IMG/VR virus record: IMGVR_UViG_3300032164_000019
Location: 1 to 53,546 of that record
Strand: one strand, 5' to 3'
Origin: a virus
Lineage: Duplodnaviria > Caudoviricetes
Length of the DNA stretch: 53,546 nucleotides
Below the pieces are notes generated by a model, which was not told where the DNA came from, ran no database searches, and saw only the letters and a list, made by a program, of their open reading frames with translations. The translations under genes were made by a program, and so were the position numbers. Positions 8,265-32,854 of the stretch are shown here, piece by piece. Each line of letters starts with the position of its first letter. The first letter of the stretch is position 1.

Positions 8265-9068
8265 TCAACAACCAACCGCAACACATGTATTCCCATTTAA
8301 AATACTGCAAATAAAGCCTTTATGATGCGGTAGTCTTCCTTTAGCTACCGACGACATATTACCATTACTGAGAACATGAATACGACAAAACTTAGCCATG
8401 TTGGTAATATTTTCAGTATGGCCGTCTGGGAATGTTACCGAATAATTTTTTGTCCAGGATATTTTACCAATTCTATCCTCTGACATTCTTCGTTTTGTTT
8501 CTTCTTTCATTGGTTTACCTTTTAAAGCATTGATAAACCCATTAGCATATCGGTTAATAACCATATTTTGTAATTTTTTCTTGGTATCTTCGGAATGGAT
8601 TTTTCCTACTCTATATGTGTTACCTTTGTTGGCTACCGATATCTTCGTTTTCGTTTCATTCGTATGATGGCGACCAAACATGGGATTCAATTCACCAGAC
8701 CTTAGTTTACCTCGCCACCGATTATTTTGAGACATTTTCTGCCTCGTTTCGTGGGAACATTTCCACCCGCCCTTTGATCCTCCTGGTTTTGTATTGTAGC
8801 CGTTTTCTTGTGTGTTATATTCTTTGATAAATTGTGGTTCCAAAACATTTAACGCATAATTACCATCATAGGAAGTTGCTATCGCAACACACTTAAACCG
8901 TTCTACTCCATATTTACGAATAGCCGCATGTAGGCGATAATGAGAATTTCGTTTAGTTGCCGCGTATACATGCGTTGCCCAGCGATGCTCAAGAGTTTTT
9001 GAAGTAAAACCAATATAGTTTTTACCATTAACCAAATTAGTAATCTTGTAAATTATGAATTCGGCCAT
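8265..9068 (-). CDS. free-standing GIY-YIG homing endonuclease with NUMOD3-like repeats
   Basis: IIYKITNLVNGKNYIG...R...E...GYN catalytic domain; repeated HSxETKxK(I/M)S and NPMFG motifs. Confidence 0.9.
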   Translation of the reverse strand: MAEFIIYKITNLVNGKNYIGFTSKTLEHRWATHVYAATKRNSHYRLHAAIRKYGVERFKCVAIATSYDGNYALNVLEPQFIKEYNTQENGYNTKPGGSKGGWKCSHETRQKMSQNNRWRGKLRSGELNPMFGRHHTNETKTKISVANKGNTYRVGKIHSEDTKKKLQNMVINRYANGFINALKGKPMKEETKRRMSEDRIGKISWTKNYSVTFPDGHTENITNMAKFCRIHVLSNGNMSSVAKGRLPHHKGFICSILNGNTCVAVGC

Positions 9069-18487: not shown

Positions 18488-18516
18488 ATTATAGCAGTTT
18501 AAAGAGTGTTTGTCAA
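18488..18516 (-). promoter_or_regulatory. consensus sigma70 promoter
   Basis: TTGACA-17 nt-TATAAT with TG at the extended -10 position. Confidence 0.7.
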
Positions 18517-27700: not shown

Positions 27701-27828
27701 TTGTGGTGCAAACTAGCCAACAAAACACTAGTGTACAAAATAATACTATGATTACTCCGGCTAATCCTAGAGGAACCGAATCAACTCATGAGCAAATTAT
27801 GCGTAAGGCCTTCGGCGGTGGTTTTTAA
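24724..27828 (+). CDS. gp29-like tape-measure/hub protein with VgrG3-like muramidase domain
   Basis: Follows gp26-gp51; K/E/P low-complexity N-half, a hydrophobic segment, and SE..G...SYGAYQF...F..AW..LA...F..AQ motif. Confidence 0.65.
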   Translation: MKFTKYGPNGEILEKGPDGRYLPSTPKPPTKPEEKMSLEDQMLAMSYTPTPTGSDGRPTKEGIIAHAKKVDDLQRRIVERDKISAAEKKAAEKKAEIDKARVKSELPKPAEPLKPSVVKPAESVKEKTDSFAAKLKKEGKERTERIKADFSEKKGEGLFSLSRLDFVPKKDKEPKAAPKSEEPEAAPKSEEPKVAPKPEEPKAAPKPEKPKKTPKPKEPKEAPKRVKKVKEPISEPAIIEKPKKTRKPKEPKLAGFDAKSSIGNDPIPETKEAPKEEKAAKENIANRIFGRLKSKAKGFFEGGKKVVENTEESPELQDTQTDVPKPDLDVEKQPLGMFGQTTIYHANKPEEEEPPKKKRRKKKGEVDEEPTVKSQSTDPKSGWDSEENTSIFGGSSKRFYRKVKLSRKEKKDINSGTNEIEDSGKTSKSDPAPKSLAGILNKHTKLLTVIAAGVKKMSGIKSKDIDYEGKLTDKLKGKTERVVGEKRKKDKNGIFDDDFLKKLTSNNPFVNLPIEMAKWGLSFISSLGAMMALKLTAFAVALAAAYDLYKGFKEGYDDIDTQKQTLNPSFDTETQKTMGGFVGMAKTTGRWLDKVNDKIFGKKRQGELTFEDIGASSSTNVLNRFGEAMHDVANNPIVPMVENNPENQAIIKAISEQQKLARETGIPTKPEDVIKPPTPPPSNEAIRYQRQEALEKWKKIRQPIIAPIPPSDSKTTSNVEREKGQRGDPVGKDLLTMARISETGPKTGSAADIKAYGKNNKDGEGYSYGAYQFHSLYGLKEFLPFLKQKYPKFAKILYDAGGIPAAQKNSPKFVAAWEALANNKEFHKAQDEGILELYGKPVFSLVKSQTGLDFSKKSLKIQSGIASMAINKGNQGAANIIKSTFSGANQQVVDSMSDKELANRIASSRALDLEGSKNRGDQGLWNRIENEKISMGGDPGQRIFKNDEGITVPSPKPTVELAKIESPQTGKQLYTASVNVEEQRNAPQPQQPVVVQTSQQNTSVQNNTMITPANPRGTESTHEQIMRKAFGGGF
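25240..25347 (+). repeat. four 27-bp tandem repeats (EPKAAPK(S/P)E)
   Basis: GAACCTAAAGCGGCTCCGAAATCCGAA-like units. Confidence 0.85.
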
Positions 27829-28479
27829 GCTTTAGCCAAATTCTCGAAATAAGATAGATCATCACCTTCCCCTGTAGCCCAAGGTAGTTCATCACTATCC
27901 TTTTCAGACTCAGGTTCTGACTCTTTTTCTAATTTCTTTGGGGCCTTAACTTTTTTCGGCTTAGATTCAGCCACTTCCAATTCATCTTCAACAGTTTCAC
28001 TCTTAGCAGAACCATTAACATTACCAACAACCTTTAAGAATCTGGCCTTTAATTCATCATAAGTCTTAAAGTTCTTTTCATCGGTGAACTCACTTAAAGG
28101 ATATTCTTTCTCCCAAATCTTTTTGATTTCCGCATCCTTACCTTCACACAAAGCGGAAGGATTATCAAACATAGATTTATCATAATTGACATATCCTAAT
28201 ACTTTACCAGCACGAAGCTTAAAGTTTGCGCCATCCCAGAAAGAGAATGGATTAATAGGTTGATCTGTACTATCTTCAGCAGGATTCAAAAGATCATTAA
28301 TCTTCTCAAAGATTTTTTGTCCAAACTTAAATAGAAAAACTTTACCATTATTTGCAGGTTCTTTAGGATCACTAACTACCAAAATATTACTAACATAGAT
28401 GAGTTTTCTTTTACGGCCTCTAACAATATCTTGGTTTGCTTTTACTTCAGTATTCCAAAGAACTGTATTTGCTTCACAA
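27825..28479 (-). CDS. ssDNA-binding protein gp32, exon 2
   Basis: Open frame from (T)TGT GAA: CEANTVLW...RKRKLIYVSNILVVSDP...GKVFLFKFG.KIF, GANFKL, NYDKS, acidic tail. Confidence 0.93.
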
Positions 28480-28555
28480 CTCTTATGTTGCGGTTAAATC
28501 GTTTCCATTTAACCTCTTATATTTTCATATAAGGACAGACTATATCACCACCCCT

Positions 28556-29536
28556 TTAAAGGGTGCTCTGCATTTCGAGAGTACTACTCTCTACTGGTAT
28601 ACCCATAGTCGTTGAACCTTCTCCATAGTTTTTAACTTTAGGAGCTTGGCTGCTGATTATCCAATTTAAAGACTTTTTAAACCTTTCAAGTTCTTCCTTT
28701 CGAAACTTAACACCTTGTTTTGTTTTTCTGATTCTATTAAAAACAGCAAATAAAAATATATATCCTTCTTTTTCTACTGCCATCTTTTTCTCAATACAGT
28801 TTTGATAATGTTTTTCCAAAGTATATTGGCTTTTTACTTCAATAATCAAATGTAAATGAGGCAAATAAATATCAGGATAATAAGTAGAATTACCGTAAAT
28901 AAAACTAGGAACATTAGAAATCCCAACTTTAATATCATTGTTATTAAAGTTGAAATCGTTAATAAGAATATCCAATACAAACCATTCATATCCTTGTACC
29001 TTTATTTCTTTTCCAAAGAAATTATATGATTTATACCAACTACTTTTTTCCTTAGTTTTCATAATCTTTTCCGAAATCGCTTTTCTTTCAAATTCATCCT
29101 TTTTTGACCATTGTAATTTGGTTTTTTCCGAATGAAAATTATTCCCATAACGATTAAGTATTGTTTTTTCTCTTTTTTCTAATAAAGAGACCCAATAAGT
29201 TTGTGTTTTTTGGTTTAAGGTTTTTCGTATGTTTAATTTAAAAGATTCTAATTTTTGAGGATCATTAACAAATCTATCCCTAACAGATTTTCTATGTTCT
29301 TCCGATTTACAAGCATGAATATCCGAACAATACTTTCCATATCCATCAGAAATACCTTTGAAAGAAACAACTTTATTACATCCATCAAAACGGCAAACAT
29401 CCTCATTTTCTTCTTTTAAGAACATATCATAATATTCTTTTGATTTTATACCCAATTTTCTCAACCTATTACACAAACCCCTTAACGTAGTAAATTCACT
29501 ATTATCAACAAGGCATTTAAATATTTTGTTATCCAT
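28556..29536 (-). CDS. intron-encoded PD-(D/E)XK-type putative homing endonuclease
   Basis: Cys-rich N-terminus; VQGYE...YYPDIYL...IIEVKS core; C-terminal residues are read through the intron core. Confidence 0.8.
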   Translation of the reverse strand: MDNKIFKCLVDNSEFTTLRGLCNRLRKLGIKSKEYYDMFLKEENEDVCRFDGCNKVVSFKGISDGYGKYCSDIHACKSEEHRKSVRDRFVNDPQKLESFKLNIRKTLNQKTQTYWVSLLEKREKTILNRYGNNFHSEKTKLQWSKKDEFERKAISEKIMKTKEKSSWYKSYNFFGKEIKVQGYEWFVLDILINDFNFNNNDIKVGISNVPSFIYGNSTYYPDIYLPHLHLIIEVKSQYTLEKHYQNCIEKKMAVEKEGYIFLFAVFNRIRKTKQGVKFRKEELERFKKSLNWIISSQAPKVKNYGEGSTTMGIPVESSTLEMQSTL

Positions 29537-29541
29537 AAAAC

Positions 29542-29549
29542 TATTTATA
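29542..29549 (-). promoter_or_regulatory. late promoter TATAAATA inside the intron
   Basis: 5 nt upstream of endonuclease ATG 29536. Confidence 0.75.
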
Positions 29550-29665
29550 CCAATACATTTCAGGTTAACTCTATATTATGACTTGTGTGGTGCCTTAACT
29601 TAAGGACTTTCCAGCAATTAACAGAGTTTTCATTAAAAATTACTTTTTAATGCCGCTATTAGCTA

Positions 29666-29943
29666 ACGGGGCAAGCTCTACCGCTGAGAGAAGTTAAACA
29701 ATTCTCAAATAACCATCCAGCGGTACCTTTAAATTGGTGTGTGAAATAACGAATAAATGGAAAATCTTCTCCTTCAGGAGCCATTAAAAAACGAATAACG
29801 GCACTACCATTATCGGCTTTATCTCGTTTTAGGGACCAGAAACGGTCATCAGCGAAGTTTGCTTTGGAATTTAAGCCCTCAATACGTTCTTGGAGCTTTT
29901 TACGGACATCATCTTTATTTTTCTTTAATTGTGCGAAATCCAT
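29666..29943 (-). CDS. ssDNA-binding protein gp32, exon 1
   Basis: DDRFW...DKADNGSAVIRFL, H.FKG..GW.FENC.TS...CP; 278+655 nt joins to a 310-aa protein. Confidence 0.93.
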
Positions 29944-30000
29944 ATGTACCTTTTATTTTTTTGTATTTTAATTATTCACTAGGTACTCATAATATAATCT

Positions 30001-30029
30001 ATTATACTACATTATAAGCAGGTTGTCAA
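30001..30029 (-). promoter_or_regulatory. sigma70 promoter for gene 32
   Basis: TTGACA-17 nt-TATAAT. Confidence 0.8.
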
Positions 30030-30641
30030 CTTCTTTTTTAATTCCTGCTTAATATTATTTATATCGCATTTTATAAAGGGTCGGTATTTTTGTATCGAAT
30101 TATACCTTTCTACCCAAATAATATTACCTTTAAAATGTTCGTTATAATGTTTCAAAAATCCAAAAATCTCATCCAATATAATCAACGTTTCTAAAGAAAT
30201 AACCTTTTGAAAACAATATGTTATAATTAACGGAAACATTTGAAAATCTTTTCCTGAATACTCAAAAAGGCTTTTGAAGGATTTTGCATTGAATCTAATC
30301 GATGATAGTAGAATATCAATATCGCGCATAAAATAGTAAGAAATAGCGTCTGCCCGCTTTTTCCAAGCAAGGTAAAGTGCTTCAGAATCAGTATTTAAGA
30401 GCAAATCCCCAACCCAAGAAGGTTGATTCTGTGAAATGAAATTAGCTACGAAGAAATCTATTAGCTCAGTCCTAGTAAATTTCTTCGCTAGTTTCTCAAA
30501 GAAATACCGGTCTTTACGCTTTTCGAACGAAACTCTGGTAACATTCGTTTTACCGGAGTATTTGAAAAAGTCGTAAGAGGAGTTATCTGAGAAGTGGGCT
30601 TTTAACGCAATATAAACTTGAAAGGCTTCAAATGAGGACAT
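30012..30641 (-). CDS. helicase loader gp59
   Basis: YIALKAHF...YDFFKY.GK...FEKRKDRYFFEKL, ISLETLIILD, KYRPF. Confidence 0.9.
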   Translation of the reverse strand: MSSFEAFQVYIALKAHFSDNSSYDFFKYSGKTNVTRVSFEKRKDRYFFEKLAKKFTRTELIDFFVANFISQNQPSWVGDLLLNTDSEALYLAWKKRADAISYYFMRDIDILLSSIRFNAKSFKSLFEYSGKDFQMFPLIITYCFQKVISLETLIILDEIFGFLKHYNEHFKGNIIWVERYNSIQKYRPFIKCDINNIKQELKKKLTTCL

Positions 30642-30686
30642 TAGGCATCATCTCTCCGAAAAACGATGATAATAAAATTCGTTTAG

Positions 30687-30911
30687 TCATATAGGTAACT
30701 TTGAAGTGGCTTTAATTAAGTTTAATCTTTCCGCATCTAAACGAATTTTATATTTAATTACGGAATTGATAAAAGGAGTAATATCAAGCACGTCTAATCC
30801 TCTACATGAGCAAAAGAAAGTAACGGCATCGATATAGTTTAATCTCCTATGTCGGACGATAGTTTCAATTTCAACCGCAAATTTATCAGGAGTCAATTTT
30901 ATGAACTCCAT
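30687..30911 (-). CDS. late-transcription coactivator gp33
   Basis: F..EIE.IV....LNYIDAV..FC...LK.KI..DAE.LNL pattern; gene order 33-59-32. Confidence 0.85.
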   Translation of the reverse strand: MEFIKLTPDKFAVEIETIVRHRRLNYIDAVTFFCSCRGLDVLDITPFINSVIKYKIRLDAERLNLIKATSKLPI

Positions 30912-30991
30912 TGAATTACCTGTAAAAGTAAATAGAAAACTCCATAAGTAACGAGACTAGTAATTCCGATTACAATTAATTTGTCTTTCAT
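30899..30991 (-). CDS. 30-aa single-transmembrane microprotein
   Basis: MKDKLIVIGITSLVTYGVFYLLLQVIQWSS*, with AGGA upstream. Confidence 0.4.
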   Translation of the reverse strand: MKDKLIVIGITSLVTYGVFYLLLQVIQWSS

Positions 30992-30996
30992 ATTTT

Positions 30997-31158
30997 TTAT
31001 CCTAATAAATTACAACATTCTTCACAATAATATCCCCATTTTCCATCGGGATAAATTTCTTTCAATTTATCATCGATATTGAAATCGTAACCCTCTTTAA
31101 CTGCACGTATAAATCCGCATCTATCACAATAATCATGTCCATCACATAGAGTCCACAT
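30997..31158 (-). CDS. 53-aa putative zinc-binding protein
   Basis: MWTLCDGHDYCDRCG...YYCEECCNLLG*, two CxxC pairs. Confidence 0.5.
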   Translation of the reverse strand: MWTLCDGHDYCDRCGFIRAVKEGYDFNIDDKLKEIYPDGKWGYYCEECCNLLG

Positions 31159-31214
31159 TATATGTACATCGCCTTATTAATTCCTCTGAGATTAAGAAAA
31201 GAATCCATAATATT

Positions 31215-31387
31215 AAATGCTGGGATTTGATTAGAAGGTTCCCAGCCGACCTCCCTCATTTAGGCGCTTGCGGCCATAACAAGTGGCTTAGTATTAATAG
31301 CCTTTATTGTTTACGTTTTTCTCGTGGACGTCCCACTAGTCAGTCTTTCTCCGCCCCATTCGATCTTGTCGAATGCCTTACGCCCCC
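31215..31387 (-). ncRNA. ssrA: two-piece tmRNA, coding piece
   Basis: Starts GGGGGCG-UAAGGCAUUCGAC; resume context AAUAAAG|GCU; tag AINTKPLVMAASA* at 31301-31260; 3' hairpin GCUGGGA/UCCCAGC. The 3' end is approximate. Confidence 0.88.
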
Positions 31388-31552
31388 ACCAGGGCCCTCA
31401 ATTATTTTATGTATTAAAAGAAGCTGGCATTACTCTCAAGATAGTTGAAATGGCTGGTAATTAACCGGTATAACCTCCATTCAACATTCCACTCTCTTAG
31501 CCACTCGCTCTAAGAACATGAAAAGACTAGTACAATTCCTAATTGAGGACCC
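31388..31552 (-). other. 165-nt intervening sequence of the permuted tmRNA precursor
   Basis: Ends pair: (ACCA)GGGUCCUCAAUUA with UAAUUGAGGGCCC(UGGU). Confidence 0.8.
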
Positions 31553-31634
31553 TGGTGGAAGCGGCGGGATTCGAACCCGCGTCCAAAATCGCTTCAAACT
31601 TCGATTCAGAGTTAAACATCACTCAACGACTAAC
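31553..31634 (-). ncRNA. ssrA: two-piece tmRNA, acceptor piece
   Basis: GAC-GCGGG-UUCGAAU-CCCGC-CGCUUCC-A-CCA; pairs with GGGGGCG to give G3.U70; 5' end inferred from the promoter. Confidence 0.88.
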
Positions 31635-31640
31635 AATACT

Positions 31641-31669
31641 ATTATATATCATTCCAAACTATTTGTCAA
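31641..31669 (-). promoter_or_regulatory. sigma70 promoter for tmRNA
   Basis: TTGACA-17 nt-TATAAT with TG at the extended -10 position. Confidence 0.85.
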
Positions 31670-31869
31670 GTACTATTTTTATTAGATTTCCAACTTATAA
31701 CTTCATCCGAATATAAAGCATATTCTAATAAATGTTGTTCTTCCGGTTCATCCGGATCACAATATGATTGGCACATGCAACAATATAAATCTCCATTACG
31801 GACTTTATGTAGACACTCATTCTTACATTTGGTGCATCTATATTTAGGGGGAATAGTTGTTCTTAACAT
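31666..31869 (-). CDS. small zinc-ribbon hypothetical protein
   Basis: CTKC...CCMC motifs, 67 aa. Confidence 0.55.
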   Translation of the reverse strand: MLRTTIPPKYRCTKCKNECLHKVRNGDLYCCMCQSYCDPDEPEEQHLLEYALYSDEVISWKSNKNST

Positions 31870-31981
31870 ATTCTTCGATTTTTCCTATTATTAAATGTTT
31901 TGGACAACAATATTTCCGTTTTTAAGTTTATATGCGGAAGGTAATCCACAGCACGTTAGACTTTGAACTACCTTCCAAATG

Positions 31982-32054
31982 TCGGGGTAGCAGGTCACGA
32001 TCCTGCGGCCTCCTGATCCCAAATCAGGCGCTCTTCCAACTGAGCTACACCCCG
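31982..32054 (-). tRNA. tRNA-Pro(UGG), CCA not encoded
   Basis: CGGGGUG/UACCCCG acceptor; CCUGA-UU UGG GA-UCAGG; T-arm GCAGG-AUCGUGA-CCUGC. Confidence 0.9.
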
Positions 32055-32081
32055 AAACTTATAAACTCTTTACTAAATTCT

Positions 32082-32110
32082 ATTATAGCATAAACCTATT
32101 TAGTTGTCAA
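32082..32110 (-). promoter_or_regulatory. sigma70 promoter upstream of tRNA-Pro
   Basis: TTGACA-17 nt-TATAAT with TG at the extended -10 position. Confidence 0.8.
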
Positions 32111-32139
32111 GTATCATTTTCAAACCTCATGGAATTATT

Positions 32140-32214
32140 TGGTGGACCGACGGAGATTTAAACTCCGATTTTCCGGGTGCAAGCCGGTGTTCCTATCAGT
32201 TAGAAGATCAGCCC
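32140..32214 (-). tRNA. tRNA-Ala(UGC), CCA encoded
   Basis: GGGCUGA/UCGGUCC acceptor with G3.U70; CCGG-CU UGC AC-CCGG; T-arm CGGAG-UUUAAAU-CUCCG; ACCA end. Confidence 0.85.
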
Positions 32215-32215
32215 A

Positions 32216-32476
32216 TTAAGTCTTTTGAAGATAATCTTTCAACTCACCGATTCCATCAGGATTTAATTTACCAACTTTTTTAGCCACTCCATCTTTCATA
32301 TGATGCCATTCTTTACCATCATAATCAATCAGGAATTGATTTTTTTTACTATCCTTATGGTCAAAGGTTACATGTTTATCTTCACCAGTTCGTTTATTAC
32401 CAAAACCTTGTGTTTTCAGTAAGGAATCTATTTCGGATTCATTACATTCTAATATTATTTGTTGTAAACGTTTCAT
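32216..32476 (-). CDS. late small protein, possible internal head protein; in-frame extension to ATG 32569 from the GC-rich cassette
   Basis: TATAAATA (32482-32489) lies 5 nt before ATG 32476 (MKRLQQIILE). Confidence 0.65.
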   Translation of the reverse strand: MKRLQQIILECNESEIDSLLKTQGFGNKRTGEDKHVTFDHKDSKKNQFLIDYDGKEWHHMKDGVAKKVGKLNPDGIGELKDYLQKT

Positions 32477-32554
32477 AAAGGTATTTATACTGCTGAAGTG
32501 GTAATCCATCGCCTCGGCGAGTTGCTTCTCCAGAGTTTCGATGCGCTCCACGAA

Positions 32555-32854
32555 ACTCGGTGTGCTCATTTTCCCTCCGCTTCCTCTCTCAGTGTTGCCG
32601 TTATGAGTTCACAGACCACCACCGATCCGGCAGGATGCGATCCGTAGGCTTATTCGCGCGTCGTCCGCACTGGTCGCGTGTAGCAAGGCGCGCTGTATCG
32701 GGGTCAGGCGCGCGAACAGTTCATCGAATAGTTCCCGCTCCGCGGCGAGTTGCTGCTTCAGGAGGATAATAGTTCTGCTACTCGGTGTGCTCATTTTCCC
32801 TCCGCTTCCTCTCTCAGTGTTGCCGTTATGAGTTCACAGACCACCACCGATCCG
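32555..32854. repeat. 75-bp identical direct repeat (32555-32629 and 32780-32854)
   Basis: ACTCGGTGTGCTCATTTTCCCTCCGC...ACCACCACCGATCCG twice, offset 225 bp, in a GC-rich patch. Confidence 0.95.
32609..32794 (-). CDS. GC-rich small hypothetical protein
   Basis: MSTPSSRTIILLKQQLAAERE..., preceded by a GGAGG RBS within the repeat. Confidence 0.5.
   Translation of the reverse strand: MSTPSSRTIILLKQQLAAERELFDELFARLTPIQRALLHATSADDARISLRIASCRIGGGL

What the first reader, a model, noticed from the sequence alone, without database searches (positions are those of the whole stretch)
31215..31669. Phage-encoded circularly permuted (two-piece) tmRNA
Seen on the minus strand, in this order: a consensus sigma70 promoter; the tmRNA 3' half (T-arm, CGCUUCC-ACCA, ending 31553); and, 165 nt later, the 5' half (GGGGGCG...UUCGAC, starting 31387). 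The halves pair in the acceptor stem with the Ala determinant G3.U70, in CAAGAUCG/CGAUUUUG, and in GACUGAC/GUUAGUC. A resume signal UAAAG|GCU opens the tag AINTKPLVMAASA*. Established: permuted tmRNAs are known from alphaproteobacteria, some marine cyanobacteria and some betaproteobacteria; the phage tmRNAs I know are one-piece. Inference: this is an independent permutation or an unrecognised lineage, and standard annotation would likely miss it. No smpB is in the window, so host SmpB would be needed.
Basis: partly seen in the sequence, partly recalled or inferred. Interest (0 to 1): 0.93.

Follow-up and report, generated by a model that had tools for sequence, protein, structure and literature searches.

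The report
Two-piece tmRNA gene in a phage
A T4-like phage from sediment metagenomes carries a real, complete "two-piece" ribosome-rescue RNA (tmRNA) gene, but such phage genes are already published, so this is a divergent new example, not a new kind of thing.

Summary
ARAGORN calls a permuted tmRNA at 31169-31645(-) with the tag AINTKPLVMAASA*. Rfam's general permuted-tmRNA model RF04321 scores 57.6 bits against a cut-off of 47. The window is a T4-like myovirus fragment.

The novelty claim does not hold. Buchholz et al. 2022 describe a two-piece tmRNA in phage Melnitz and count 53 two-piece tmRNAs in phage genomes. Here, Melnitz, Mosig and HTVC008M all carry one, as do many IMG/VR phage contigs. 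The gene sits in the same slot as in Melnitz and HTVC008M, upstream of gp33-gp59-gp32. ARAGORN and Rfam 15 both find it, so standard annotation would not miss it.

What is unusual:
- It fails all three clade-specific models: beta 44.7/84, cyano 24.3/70, alpha 19.6/50.
- It has a 165-nt intervening sequence.
- Its tag ends ...MAASA.
- Its only recognisable relative, L343, lies in an unrelated phage.

Trees cannot place it. An independent permutation is neither shown nor excluded.

The parts
31641..31669 (-). Sigma-70-type promoter: TTGACA (31669-31664), 17-nt spacer, TATAAT (31646-31641). The inferred transcript start is near G31634.
   Evidence: 12/12 consensus match. It is one of six perfect matches in the window, all on the minus strand, against 0.13 expected by chance. 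The start site is inferred from spacing, not measured.
31553..31634 (-). Acceptor piece, about 82 nt. It holds the 3' strands of the P2 helices, the T arm (stem 31580-76/31568-64, loop UUCGAAU), the acceptor 3' strand CGCUUCC (31563-31557) and an encoded ACCA (31556-31553).
   Evidence: ARAGORN 3' tRNA domain; Rfam RF04321 alignment; pairs checked.
31388..31552 (-). Intervening sequence, 165 nt, presumed to be removed from the precursor. Its two ends pair (16 of 16) and so extend the 7-bp acceptor stem into a 23-bp helix.
   Evidence: Fold of 31380-31560: -62.7 kcal/mol, z = -4.4 against 200 shuffles. 16 of 16 pairs. No Rfam family above noise, no tRNA, and no similarity to any other fetched locus at E < 0.2.
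31215..31387 (-). Coding piece, about 170 nt. It holds the acceptor 5' strand GGGGGCG, the D-loop analogue ..UUCGAC, the 5' strands of P2a/b/c, PK1, the tag frame and the post-tag pseudoknot. Its 3' end is not defined.
   Evidence: ARAGORN 5' tRNA domain and tag; Rfam alignments. No terminator-like site follows; the only one found in 30600-32600 is at 31051-31034.
31313..31336 (-). PK1: stem 1 GUGG/CCAC (31336-33/31327-24). Stem 2 pairs loop ACGU (31331-28) with ACGU (31316-13).
   Evidence: 4 of 4 and 4 of 4 pairs. Stem 1 shows one both-sided change relative to L343.
31260..31301 (-). Tag reading frame GCU...GCC plus stop UAA, encoding AINTKPLVMAASA*. It is preceded by U(-5)A(-4)AAG.
   Evidence: ARAGORN ('Tag not identified' among its known tags). 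The frame-setting U85/A86 rule of E. coli comes from passages of PMC2481249. The Rfam beta-model alignment shows a 6-nt insertion before the stop, relative to the consensus ...AUGGCCGCcUAA.
31219..31254 (-). Post-tag H-type pseudoknot: GGAGGU (31254-49)/ACCUUC (31239-34) and GCUGGGA (31246-40)/UCCCAGC (31225-19).
   Evidence: 6 of 6 and 7 of 7 pairs. The loop motif CCUUCUAAUCAAAU recurs in cyano-type, beta-type and one-piece phage tmRNAs.
30687..30911 (-). Downstream gene for the late-transcription coactivator (gp33), followed by gp59 (30012-30641) and an intron-split gp32. This is the conserved neighbourhood of the tmRNA gene.
   Evidence: Pfam PF16805, 64.4 bits; PHROG helicase loader and SSB. 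The same order is seen in Melnitz and HTVC008M and in contigs L141, L100 and L103.

Best explanation
This is a genuine, probably functional, circularly permuted tmRNA (ssrA) gene of an uncultured T4-like myovirus.

Shown:
- A consensus sigma-70 promoter lies directly upstream.
- The gene order is acceptor piece (~82 nt), then a 165-nt intervening sequence, then the coding piece (~170 nt).
- A complete tRNA-like domain is present: acceptor stem with G3.U70, canonical T arm and encoded CCA.
- Three P2 helices would hold the two pieces together.
- PK1, a resume codon with U-5/A-4, a 13-codon tag and a post-tag pseudoknot are all present.
- The gene sits where related phages keep their two-piece tmRNA.

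Inferred, by analogy with cellular two-piece tmRNAs:
- Host RNA polymerase transcribes the gene early in infection as one precursor.
- In that precursor the acceptor stem is extended to a 23-bp helix.
- Host RNase P cuts 5' of G31387.
- Host 3' nucleases trim back to CCA at 31553, and RNase III may first cut the long helix.
- The two pieces stay base-paired and host AlaRS charges them with alanine.
- Host SmpB and EF-Tu deliver them to stalled ribosomes, which resume on GCU and add AINTKPLVMAASA.

The likely benefit is to keep ribosomes free while the phage degrades host mRNA.

By origin it is best read as a strongly diverged member of the phage-borne two-piece tmRNAs. The beta type is the nearest covariance model. 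L343 is its only recognisable relative.
For: Detection:
- ARAGORN calls a permuted tmRNA with a tag.
- RF04321 scores 57.6 bits against GA 47, E = 1.2e-8.

Structure:
- All helices pair fully.
- The precursor helix folds with z = -4.4.
- U-5/A-4 precede the resume codon, matching the frame-setting positions in E. coli.

Promoter: 12/12 match. Six such sites occur on the minus strand against 0.13 expected.

Phage context:
- The record is an IMG/VR virus.
- It encodes T4-like baseplate, gp59, gp32, pnk, RNA ligase, NrdA, Td and primase genes.
- The nearest cultured phages are Melnitz, Mosig and HTVC008M, at about 40% amino-acid identity on gp6.
- No integrase is present.

Precedent: 3 of 3 of those relatives have a permuted tmRNA above cut-off. 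[quoted passage not shown]

Synteny: the order tmRNA, then gp33, gp59, gp32 is seen in the window, Melnitz, HTVC008M and the beta-type T4-like contigs L141, L100 and L103.

Maintenance:
- An identical copy lies on a second IMG/VR contig.
- Identical sequence occurs in contigs of four further sediment runs.
- Against L343, 7 base pairs changed on both sides and none broke: acceptor 2, T stem 2, P2a 2, PK1 1.
Against: - No RNA evidence exists. No RNA run holds the stretch, so transcription, processing at 31553/31387 and charging are all inferred.
- No SmpB is in the record, though the record is only 31% complete.
- The tag ends ...ASA rather than the usual ...AA.
- G4.U69 sits next to G3.U70.
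- The acceptor-piece side of P2 has large asymmetric internal loops.
- Rfam's own P2 register has two mismatches, and my 7-bp GUUAGUC/GACUGAC register is supported by no covariation.
- All three clade-specific models score below their cut-offs.
- The 44.7-bit beta score is no higher than what ordinary one-piece Burkholderiales tmRNAs reach against that model (25-50 bits). Assignment to the beta lineage is therefore weak.
- The copies in other samples are identical, so they say nothing about selection.
Confidence: 0.8

Rival explanations
1. A re-purposed tmRNA. It frees stalled ribosomes but adds a tag that is not the host's degradation signal, or it competes with host tmRNA for SmpB. Either way the phage changes the fate of tagged proteins instead of simply adding rescue capacity. 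This refines the best explanation and does not exclude it.
For: - The tag ends ...MAASA and lacks the acidic ANDE-type start seen in the 5 distinct beta-type phage tags and the 3 bacterial beta-type tags.
- The only relative, L343, ends ...AAAAGR.
- Both carry two extra codons where the consensus has its stop.
- ARAGORN reports 'Tag not identified'.
- The Melnitz authors speculate about selective tagging.
Against: - Odd tag endings are common among the phage tmRNAs seen here (VAV and ATA in cyano-type contigs), and some bacterial tags end ALA or ATA.
- ...ASA may therefore still be a degron in the unknown host.
- Nothing was tested. My statement that ClpX needs a C-terminal ..AA is recalled, not from any call.
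Confidence: 0.25
2. A fourth, independent permutation event, or a sample from an unrecognised bacterial two-piece lineage. On this reading the window RNA, with L343, does not descend from the alpha, beta or cyano two-piece lineages.
For: - It is below cut-off for all three clade models, and L343 is also below (beta 64.2/84).
- In the careful tree it does not join any permuted group. By path its nearest rows are one-piece phage tmRNAs.
- With the T-arm and acceptor columns removed, window and L343 pair at 86/70.
- Its T loop is canonical, unlike the alpha-type phage T loops.
Against: - AU tests do not reject placing it with the beta (p 0.34), cyano+L343 (0.41) or alpha (0.30) groups.
- That same tree fails to recover the known beta and alpha groups, so it carries little signal.
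- The beta model aligns end to end, including P2, PK1, the resume region and the post-tag pseudoknot.
- Phage beta-type scores form a gradient: 139.6, 138.3, 127.9, 102.5, 85.5, 80.5, then 64.2 and 44.7.
- T4-like contigs with beta-type tmRNAs keep the gene in the same neighbourhood.
- Closeness to the one-piece phage tmRNAs is partly an artefact, because those loci were fished with the window's own T-arm/acceptor pattern.
Confidence: 0.17
3. A decaying, non-functional copy captured from a host or another phage.
For: The covariance-model scores are low, the tag ending is unusual, the intervening sequence is long, and there is no RNA evidence.
Against: - Every helix is intact.
- A perfect promoter precedes it.
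- The frame-setting U-5/A-4 are present.
- Only compensatory or wobble changes separate it from L343 in 22 compared pairs.
- The gene position is conserved in related phages.
Confidence: 0.06

Closest known systems
Two-piece tmRNA (ssrA) of Methylophilales phage Melnitz and Pelagibacter phages HTVC008M and Mosig (Buchholz et al. 2022, PMC9004378)
   Same: - All are T4-like aquatic myoviruses; gp6 is about 40% identical.
- The gene is permuted and passes RF04321.
- It lies upstream of gp33 in both Melnitz and HTVC008M; the annotated gp59 and gp32 that follow are seen in Melnitz.
- It lies downstream of an early-type promoter.
- The intervening sequence of Melnitz is also long: its RF04321 match spans 333 nt.
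   Different: - Those RNAs are alpha-type (RF01849 at 67.6-106.7 bits) with altered T loops. The window scores 19.6 on that model and has a canonical T loop.
- Melnitz has a glutamine riboswitch just after the gene (52.8 bits). None is found in the window.
- Their tags are ANDNYVPVDYALAA, GEDNFALAA and ANFNEYALAA.
Betaproteobacterial two-piece tmRNA (Rfam RF01850) and its phage-borne copies (IMG/VR loci L100/L139, L102, L103, L115/L141, L124)
   Same: - It is the best-scoring clade model and aligns over its full length: promoter, P2, T arm, acceptor, PK1 stem, resume region and post-tag pseudoknot.
- The T loop is canonical and CCA is encoded.
- The phage copies share the G4.U69 acceptor, though they were selected for it.
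- Three of those records are T4-like. The loci L141, L100 and L103 (L100 lies on a separate 8.7-kb contig carrying the same tmRNA as the T4-like record behind L139) hold the gene upstream of gp59 and gp32, with gp33 also seen in L141 and L100.
   Different: - The score is 44.7 bits against GA 84. Bacterial members score 169-296 and phage copies 80.5-139.6.
- The intervening sequence is 165 nt, against about 24 in the model.
- There is a 6-nt insertion before the stop.
- The terminal hairpin does not align.
- The tag lacks the ANDE start.
Permuted tmRNA of IMG/VR contig L343 (62-kb phage with PolA and primase-helicase)
   Same: - Both have the D-loop analogue AAGGCAUUCGACA.
- PK1 has the same design, with 11 nt from PK1 to the resume codon.
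- The tag contains TKPL, and two extra codons follow ..AA.
- Both are below cut-off on all clade models.
- They pair in the trimmed tree at 86/70.
   Different: - The phage is unrelated: no gp6 match, and it has family-A polymerase, HNH and an integrase-like ORF.
- The intervening sequence is 27 nt and CCA is not fully encoded.
- G+C of the RF04321 match is 52%, against 45% for the window's match.
- With T-arm columns included it groups with the cyano type at 95/87.
Caulobacter-type cellular two-piece tmRNA (Keiler, Shapiro and Williams 2000; recalled, the paper was not held)
   Same: The logic is the same: one precursor, an acceptor piece and a coding piece held together by base pairing, fewer pseudoknots than one-piece tmRNA, and dependence on RNase P, AlaRS and SmpB. 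The general statements come from passages of PMC3968760 and PMC11915505.
   Different: That RNA is cellular and alpha-type. Nothing about processing has been measured for the phage RNA.

Membership tests
tmRNA (functional class) | tRNA-like domain: 7-bp acceptor stem with G3.U70, T arm, 3' CCA | tested here: met
   Acceptor stem 7 of 7 pairs with G3.U70. T stem 5 of 5 pairs with loop UUCGAAU. ACCA is encoded at 31556-31553. ARAGORN finds both the 5' and 3' tRNA domains.
tmRNA (functional class) | mRNA-like domain: resume codon set by upstream U/A, short tag frame, in-frame stop | tested here: met
   UAAAG|GCU with U at -5 and A at -4. These match E. coli U85/A86 (passages of PMC2481249). There are 13 codons followed by UAA.
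tmRNA (functional class) | Tag ends in a hydrophobic ..AA-type degron | tested here: inconclusive
   The tag ends MAASA. ARAGORN reports 'Tag not identified'. Non-AA endings also occur in other phage and bacterial tags seen here.
tmRNA (functional class) | Alanylation by AlaRS, binding of SmpB, tagging activity | not testable with these tools
   No SmpB in the record. No RNA run holds the stretch.
Permuted (two-piece) tmRNA, Rfam RF04321 | Gene order of 3' tRNA half, then intervening sequence, then 5' tRNA half plus tag; score at or above the gathering cut-off | tested here: met
   57.6 bits against 47, model positions 1-213. ARAGORN reports 'Permuted'.
Betaproteobacteria-type two-piece tmRNA, Rfam RF01850 | Score at or above 84 bits | tested here: not met
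   44.7 bits over the full-length alignment. One-piece Burkholderiales tmRNAs reach 25-50 bits on this model, so the score does not show membership.
Alphaproteobacteria-type two-piece tmRNA, Rfam RF01849 | Score at or above 50 bits | tested here: not met
   19.6 bits over model positions 84-170 only. The T loop differs from those of the alpha-type phage tmRNAs.
Cyanobacteria-type two-piece tmRNA, Rfam RF01851 | Score at or above 70 bits | tested here: not met
   24.3 bits over model positions 49-128 only. Cyano-type phage copies score 112-134 bits.
Standard one-piece tmRNA, Rfam RF00023 | Score at or above 47 bits on the native sequence | tested here: not met
   28.6-40.8 bits, on the 3' half only.
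tmRNA locus of Melnitz-like and pelagimyophage-like T4-type phages | tmRNA gene upstream of gp33 (late-transcription coactivator), gp59 and gp32, on the same strand | tested here: met
   Seen in the window, Melnitz, HTVC008M and contigs L141, L100 and L103.
tmRNA locus of Melnitz-like and pelagimyophage-like T4-type phages | Glutamine riboswitch at the 3' end of ssrA (Melnitz) | tested here: not met
   RF01739 hits Melnitz at 52.8 bits. It is not listed for the window at gathering threshold or at E <= 10 over 31000-32400.

The most novel reading that the evidence does not exclude
The window RNA and L343 represent a separate lineage of two-piece tmRNA that circulates among unrelated phages. It would have arisen either by its own permutation event or from a bacterial two-piece lineage not yet recognised. 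Its tag has been extended past the canonical ..AA end (MAA-SA, AAAA-GR). Rescued proteins would then no longer carry the host's degradation signal, so ribosome rescue would be uncoupled from proteolysis to the phage's benefit.
Probability: 0.15. Interest if true: 0.6.

Novelty: new member of a known kind. Interest (0 to 1): 0.3.

Why it matters
Phage-borne tmRNAs show that large lytic phages invest in ribosome rescue. This example adds three points.

- In T4-like aquatic and sediment phages the tmRNA gene occupies a conserved slot upstream of gp33-gp59-gp32. The RNA type in that slot differs between phages: alpha-type, beta-type, or this divergent form.
- Clade-specific covariance models miss divergent phage copies that the merged RF04321 model and ARAGORN still find.
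- A small sub-group has tags that run two codons past the usual ..AA end. This gives a simple test of whether phages uncouple rescue from proteolysis.

None of this overturns current understanding.

Tried and rejected
Searches for close relatives, to obtain covariation:
- The exact 32-mer in IMG/VR found only an identical copy, L002.
- blastn of the locus against 50,697 phage records found no match.
- The gapped pattern in JGI metagenomes gave 3 loci, none a relative.
- The T-arm/acceptor pattern in GTDB genomes gave 66 loci. All the tmRNAs called there were one-piece, and the two extra 'permuted' calls in L149 and L195 overlap standard tmRNAs and were dropped.
- gp59 neighbours: 0 of the 60 loci given to ARAGORN (of 80 fetched) had any tRNA or tmRNA in the flanks.
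- gp6 relatives: the nearest is 54% identical, and 0 of 5 larger records passed RF04321.

Expression and population variation:
- No RNA holder was listed.
- Contigs of runs X3-X6 carry identical sequence and no variants. Parts of the stretch had no cover.

Phylogeny:
- FastTree placed the window inside the beta-type permuted clade (support 0.85). It had earlier paired it with L124 (0.79).
- I reject these as evidence. IQ-TREE did not reproduce them.
- The pattern-selected loci share the window's T arm and acceptor by construction.
- After those columns were removed, nothing was rejected.
- Rows left out: 66 of 115 cores, mostly near-duplicates and further one-piece tmRNAs.

Other steps that led nowhere:
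- The free cofold of the two pieces recovered the acceptor stem and GUUAGUC/GACUGAC but mis-folded the T arm. It is not used as evidence.
- An attP or integration-remnant reading is rejected for the window. Both halves and the tag are present, there is no integrase, and the gene set is T4-like and lytic.
- The intervening sequence showed no family, no tRNA and no similarity elsewhere. Its 12-codon ORF was not pursued.

Papers and tools that were unavailable:
- Sharkady and Williams 2004 and Keiler et al. 2000 were not held. What I say of them is recalled or comes from reviews.
- Supplements are closed. Table S1 of PMC9004378 (the 53 two-piece phage tmRNAs) and Table S2 of PMC11915505 might already list this RNA type or tag.
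Full report
**What is there.** On the minus strand of 31215-31669 the sequence reads, in this order:
- a TTGACA-17-TATAAT promoter;
- an 82-nt stretch ending in a canonical T arm and CGCUUCC-ACCA;
- 165 nt of other sequence;
- GGGGGCG...UUCGAC followed by a short reading frame.

ARAGORN calls this a permuted tmRNA at 31169-31645 with the tag AINTKPLVMAASA*. Rfam 15's merged permuted-tmRNA model RF04321 matches 31260-31623 over all 213 model positions at 57.6 bits (cut-off 47, E = 1.2e-8 for the window).

I checked every helix base by base:
- acceptor stem, 7 of 7 pairs, with G3.U70 and also G4.U69;
- T stem, 5 of 5;
- P2a CGAUUUUG/CAAGAUCG, 8 of 8;
- P2b CUCUG/CGGAG, 5 of 5;
- P2c GUUAGUC/GACUGAC, 7 of 7;
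- PK1, 4+4;
- an H-type pseudoknot after the tag, 6+7.

The resume codon GCU follows UAAAG. That places U at -5 and A at -4, the positions shown in E. coli (U85, A86) to set the frame (passages of PMC2481249).

**The promoter.** It is a 12/12 match. The window holds six such perfect sites, all on the minus strand, against 0.13 expected; 0 of 100 shuffles reached six. One of the others precedes the tRNA-Pro gene just upstream. No terminator-like site follows the coding piece. The 3' end of that piece is therefore undefined, and the transcript may run on into the next genes.

**The precursor.** The two ends of the 165-nt intervening sequence pair 16 of 16. This extends the acceptor stem to 23 uninterrupted pairs. 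The fold of 31380-31560 has z = -4.4. The interior of the intervening sequence matches no RNA family, no tRNA and nothing else I fetched.

**The genome.**
- The window is a whole IMG/VR virus record that CheckV rates 31% complete.
- It encodes T4-type baseplate wedge proteins, gp59, gp32, polynucleotide kinase, RNA ligase, NrdA, thymidylate synthase and primase.
- Its gp6 is closest, at about 40% identity, to Methylophilales phage Melnitz and Pelagibacter phages Mosig and HTVC008M. Cyanomyoviruses come next.
- In IMG/VR the nearest gp6 is 54% identical and the rest are 44% or less, so the phage is an isolated lineage.
- It has neither SmpB nor an integrase in the part we hold.
- Seven DNA runs labelled sediment metagenome hold the stretch and none is RNA. 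Contigs of four of them carry it without a single difference.

**Is a permuted tmRNA in a phage new? No.**
- Passages of Buchholz et al. 2022 (PMC9004378) describe a two-piece ssrA in Melnitz.
- The same paper reports that ARAGORN flags 53 two-piece tmRNAs among 18,146 phage genomes, 50 of them marine or aquatic.
- It also passes in 4 of 5 large gp59-related IMG/VR contigs. These carry cyano-type RNAs of 112-134 bits.
- Seven further IMG/VR loci (five distinct sequences) carry beta-type RNAs.

**Conserved position.**
- Pfam identifies ORF 30687-30911 as the late-transcription coactivator gp33.
- The window therefore reads tmRNA, two tiny ORFs, gp33, gp59, gp32.
- Melnitz reads tmRNA, gp33, gp59, thyX, gp32. 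HTVC008M has the tmRNA about 0.6 kb upstream of gp33.
- The T4-like contigs with beta-type tmRNAs have the gene 1.1 kb (L141), 2.6 kb (L100) or about 9 kb (L103) upstream of the gp59-gp32 block, on the same strand. gp33 was detected in L141 and L100 but not in L103. L141 and L103 lie on records shown to be T4-like; L100 is a separate contig carrying the same tmRNA as the T4-like record behind L139.
- The cyano-type contigs do not share this arrangement. ARAGORN found no tmRNA within 4 kb of their gp59, and the one record whose coordinates I compared (G001) has the tmRNA about 60 kb from gp59.
- This group of phages thus has a tmRNA 'slot', and the RNA type in it varies.

**Which lineage?** The clade-specific models all fail:
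- beta RF01850, 44.7 bits against 84;
- cyano RF01851, 24.3 against 70;
- alpha RF01849, 19.6 against 50.

The last two align only the tRNA-like part.

The beta alignment is end to end. It matches the promoter, P2, T arm, PK1 stem, resume region and post-tag pseudoknot, with a 6-nt insertion just before the stop. But a control warns against reading much into it. Among 151 Burkholderiales genomes only 3 pass the beta cut-off (169-296 bits), while many ordinary one-piece tmRNAs reach 25-50 bits. The post-tag loop motif is also shared by cyano-type, beta-type and one-piece phage tmRNAs, so it does not discriminate.

Trees of de-permuted cores give no firm answer:
- FastTree put the window inside the beta-type clade (0.85).
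- IQ-TREE left it in an unresolved comb next to one-piece phage tmRNAs. Those neighbours had been fished with the window's own T-arm/acceptor pattern.
- With those columns removed, the window pairs with L343 at 86/70.
- AU tests reject none of the five placements tried (p 0.30-0.41).
- That tree does not even recover the known beta and alpha groups.

The honest statement is this. It is a two-piece tmRNA that fits no clade model. The beta type is the nearest by covariance model. Its descent is unresolved.

**One relative.** A pattern built on the unusual D-loop analogue (AGGCAUUCGAC) found L343, a 62-kb IMG/VR contig.
- Its permuted tmRNA scores 71.4 bits on RF04321 and 64.2 on the beta model, again below cut-off.
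- Its tag is ATKPLTFAAAAGR*.
- It shares with the window the first 21 nt of the coding piece and the PK1 design (GUGG/CCAC against GUGC/GCAC, plus ACGU/ACGU).
- It also shares the 11-nt spacing from PK1 to the resume codon, the TKPL in the tag, and two extra codons after ..AA.
- Across the acceptor stem, T stem, P2a and PK1 stem 1 (22 pairs), 7 pairs changed on both sides, 4 on one side, and none is broken.
- The carrier is an unrelated phage. It has no gp6 match, and it has a family-A polymerase, primase-helicase, HNH and an integrase-like ORF.
- This RNA type has therefore moved between phages, or was taken twice from related hosts.

**How it most likely works.**

Shown: the gene's anatomy, its promoter, its conserved position, and structural conservation against L343.

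Inferred, from what is established for cellular two-piece tmRNAs (general statements in passages of PMC3968760, and PMC11915505; Caulobacter details recalled):
- early transcription by host polymerase;
- RNase P cleavage 5' of G31387;
- 3' trimming to CCA at 31553, perhaps after RNase III cuts the 23-bp helix;
- the two pieces held together by P2a-c;
- alanylation through G3.U70;
- delivery by host SmpB and EF-Tu;
- resumption on GCU.

The unusual tag end (MAASA; AAAAGR in L343) raises the possibility that tagged proteins are not degraded in the usual way. That is speculation and easy to test.

**Verdict.** This is a real and well-formed gene of a kind already in print, found by standard tools. 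It is a divergent new member with one relative and an unresolved origin. Interest is modest.

Noticed in passing
window 27825-29952 (-): The gp32 (ssDNA-binding protein) gene appears to be split by a group I intron of about 1.2 kb. Exon 1 lies at about 29659-29952 and ends ...GRACPV, inside the zinc-finger motif. Exon 2 runs from about 28493 down to 27825 and begins ...CEANTVLW. Between them lie an ORF with DUF7487 (28556-29536, Pfam 72.6 bits) and the Rfam group I core (28516-28749, 55.3 bits). The resemblance to T4 gp32 is my own reading of the translations. I did not check whether an intron in gene 32 is already known.
   Followed up: partly
window 32143-32214 (-): Rfam calls a tRNA here at 43.4 bits, but ARAGORN does not. 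Reading the alignment, the anticodon loop is CUUGCAC (UGC, Ala) and the acceptor stem has G3.U70. The D arm is odd and the first anticodon-stem pair is a mismatch. The phage would then carry both a tRNA-Ala-like gene and a tmRNA, and both are AlaRS substrates.
   Followed up: no
window 18488-39695 (-), six sites: Six perfect TTGACA-N16-18-TATAAT promoters lie on the minus strand, against 0.13 expected. They are at 18488, 30001 (just before gp32 exon 1), 31641 (tmRNA), 32082 (tRNA-Pro), 32981 and 39666. They look like the phage's early promoter class.
   Followed up: partly
L086 1461-1865 (IMG/VR record G005): A cyano-type permuted tmRNA has a tRNA-Tyr gene (1553-1635) lying inside its intervening sequence, so a tRNA is nested in the part that is cut out of the tmRNA precursor.
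   Followed up: no
IMG/VR loci L095, L097, L101, L106, L111-L113, L116, L118, L121, L127, L130, L132, L144, L146: A family of one-piece phage tmRNAs has very long tags of 21-31 residues, such as ANNIVDMAPSLDEADAILAKFGWAEEAAVAA. The core ...(S/E)ADxILAxFG(W/Y/F)... is conserved across the tags, which looks more like a small folded peptide than a simple degron.
   Followed up: no
window 30997-31158 (-) and 31666-31869 (-): The tmRNA gene is flanked by two small cysteine-rich ORFs of 53 and 67 aa, with CxxC-type spacing. Neither has a Pfam match.
   Followed up: no
window 8265-9068 (-): A GIY-YIG/HNH-type homing endonuclease ORF (PHROG 314, E = 1e-30) is inserted among the baseplate wedge genes.
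   Followed up: no
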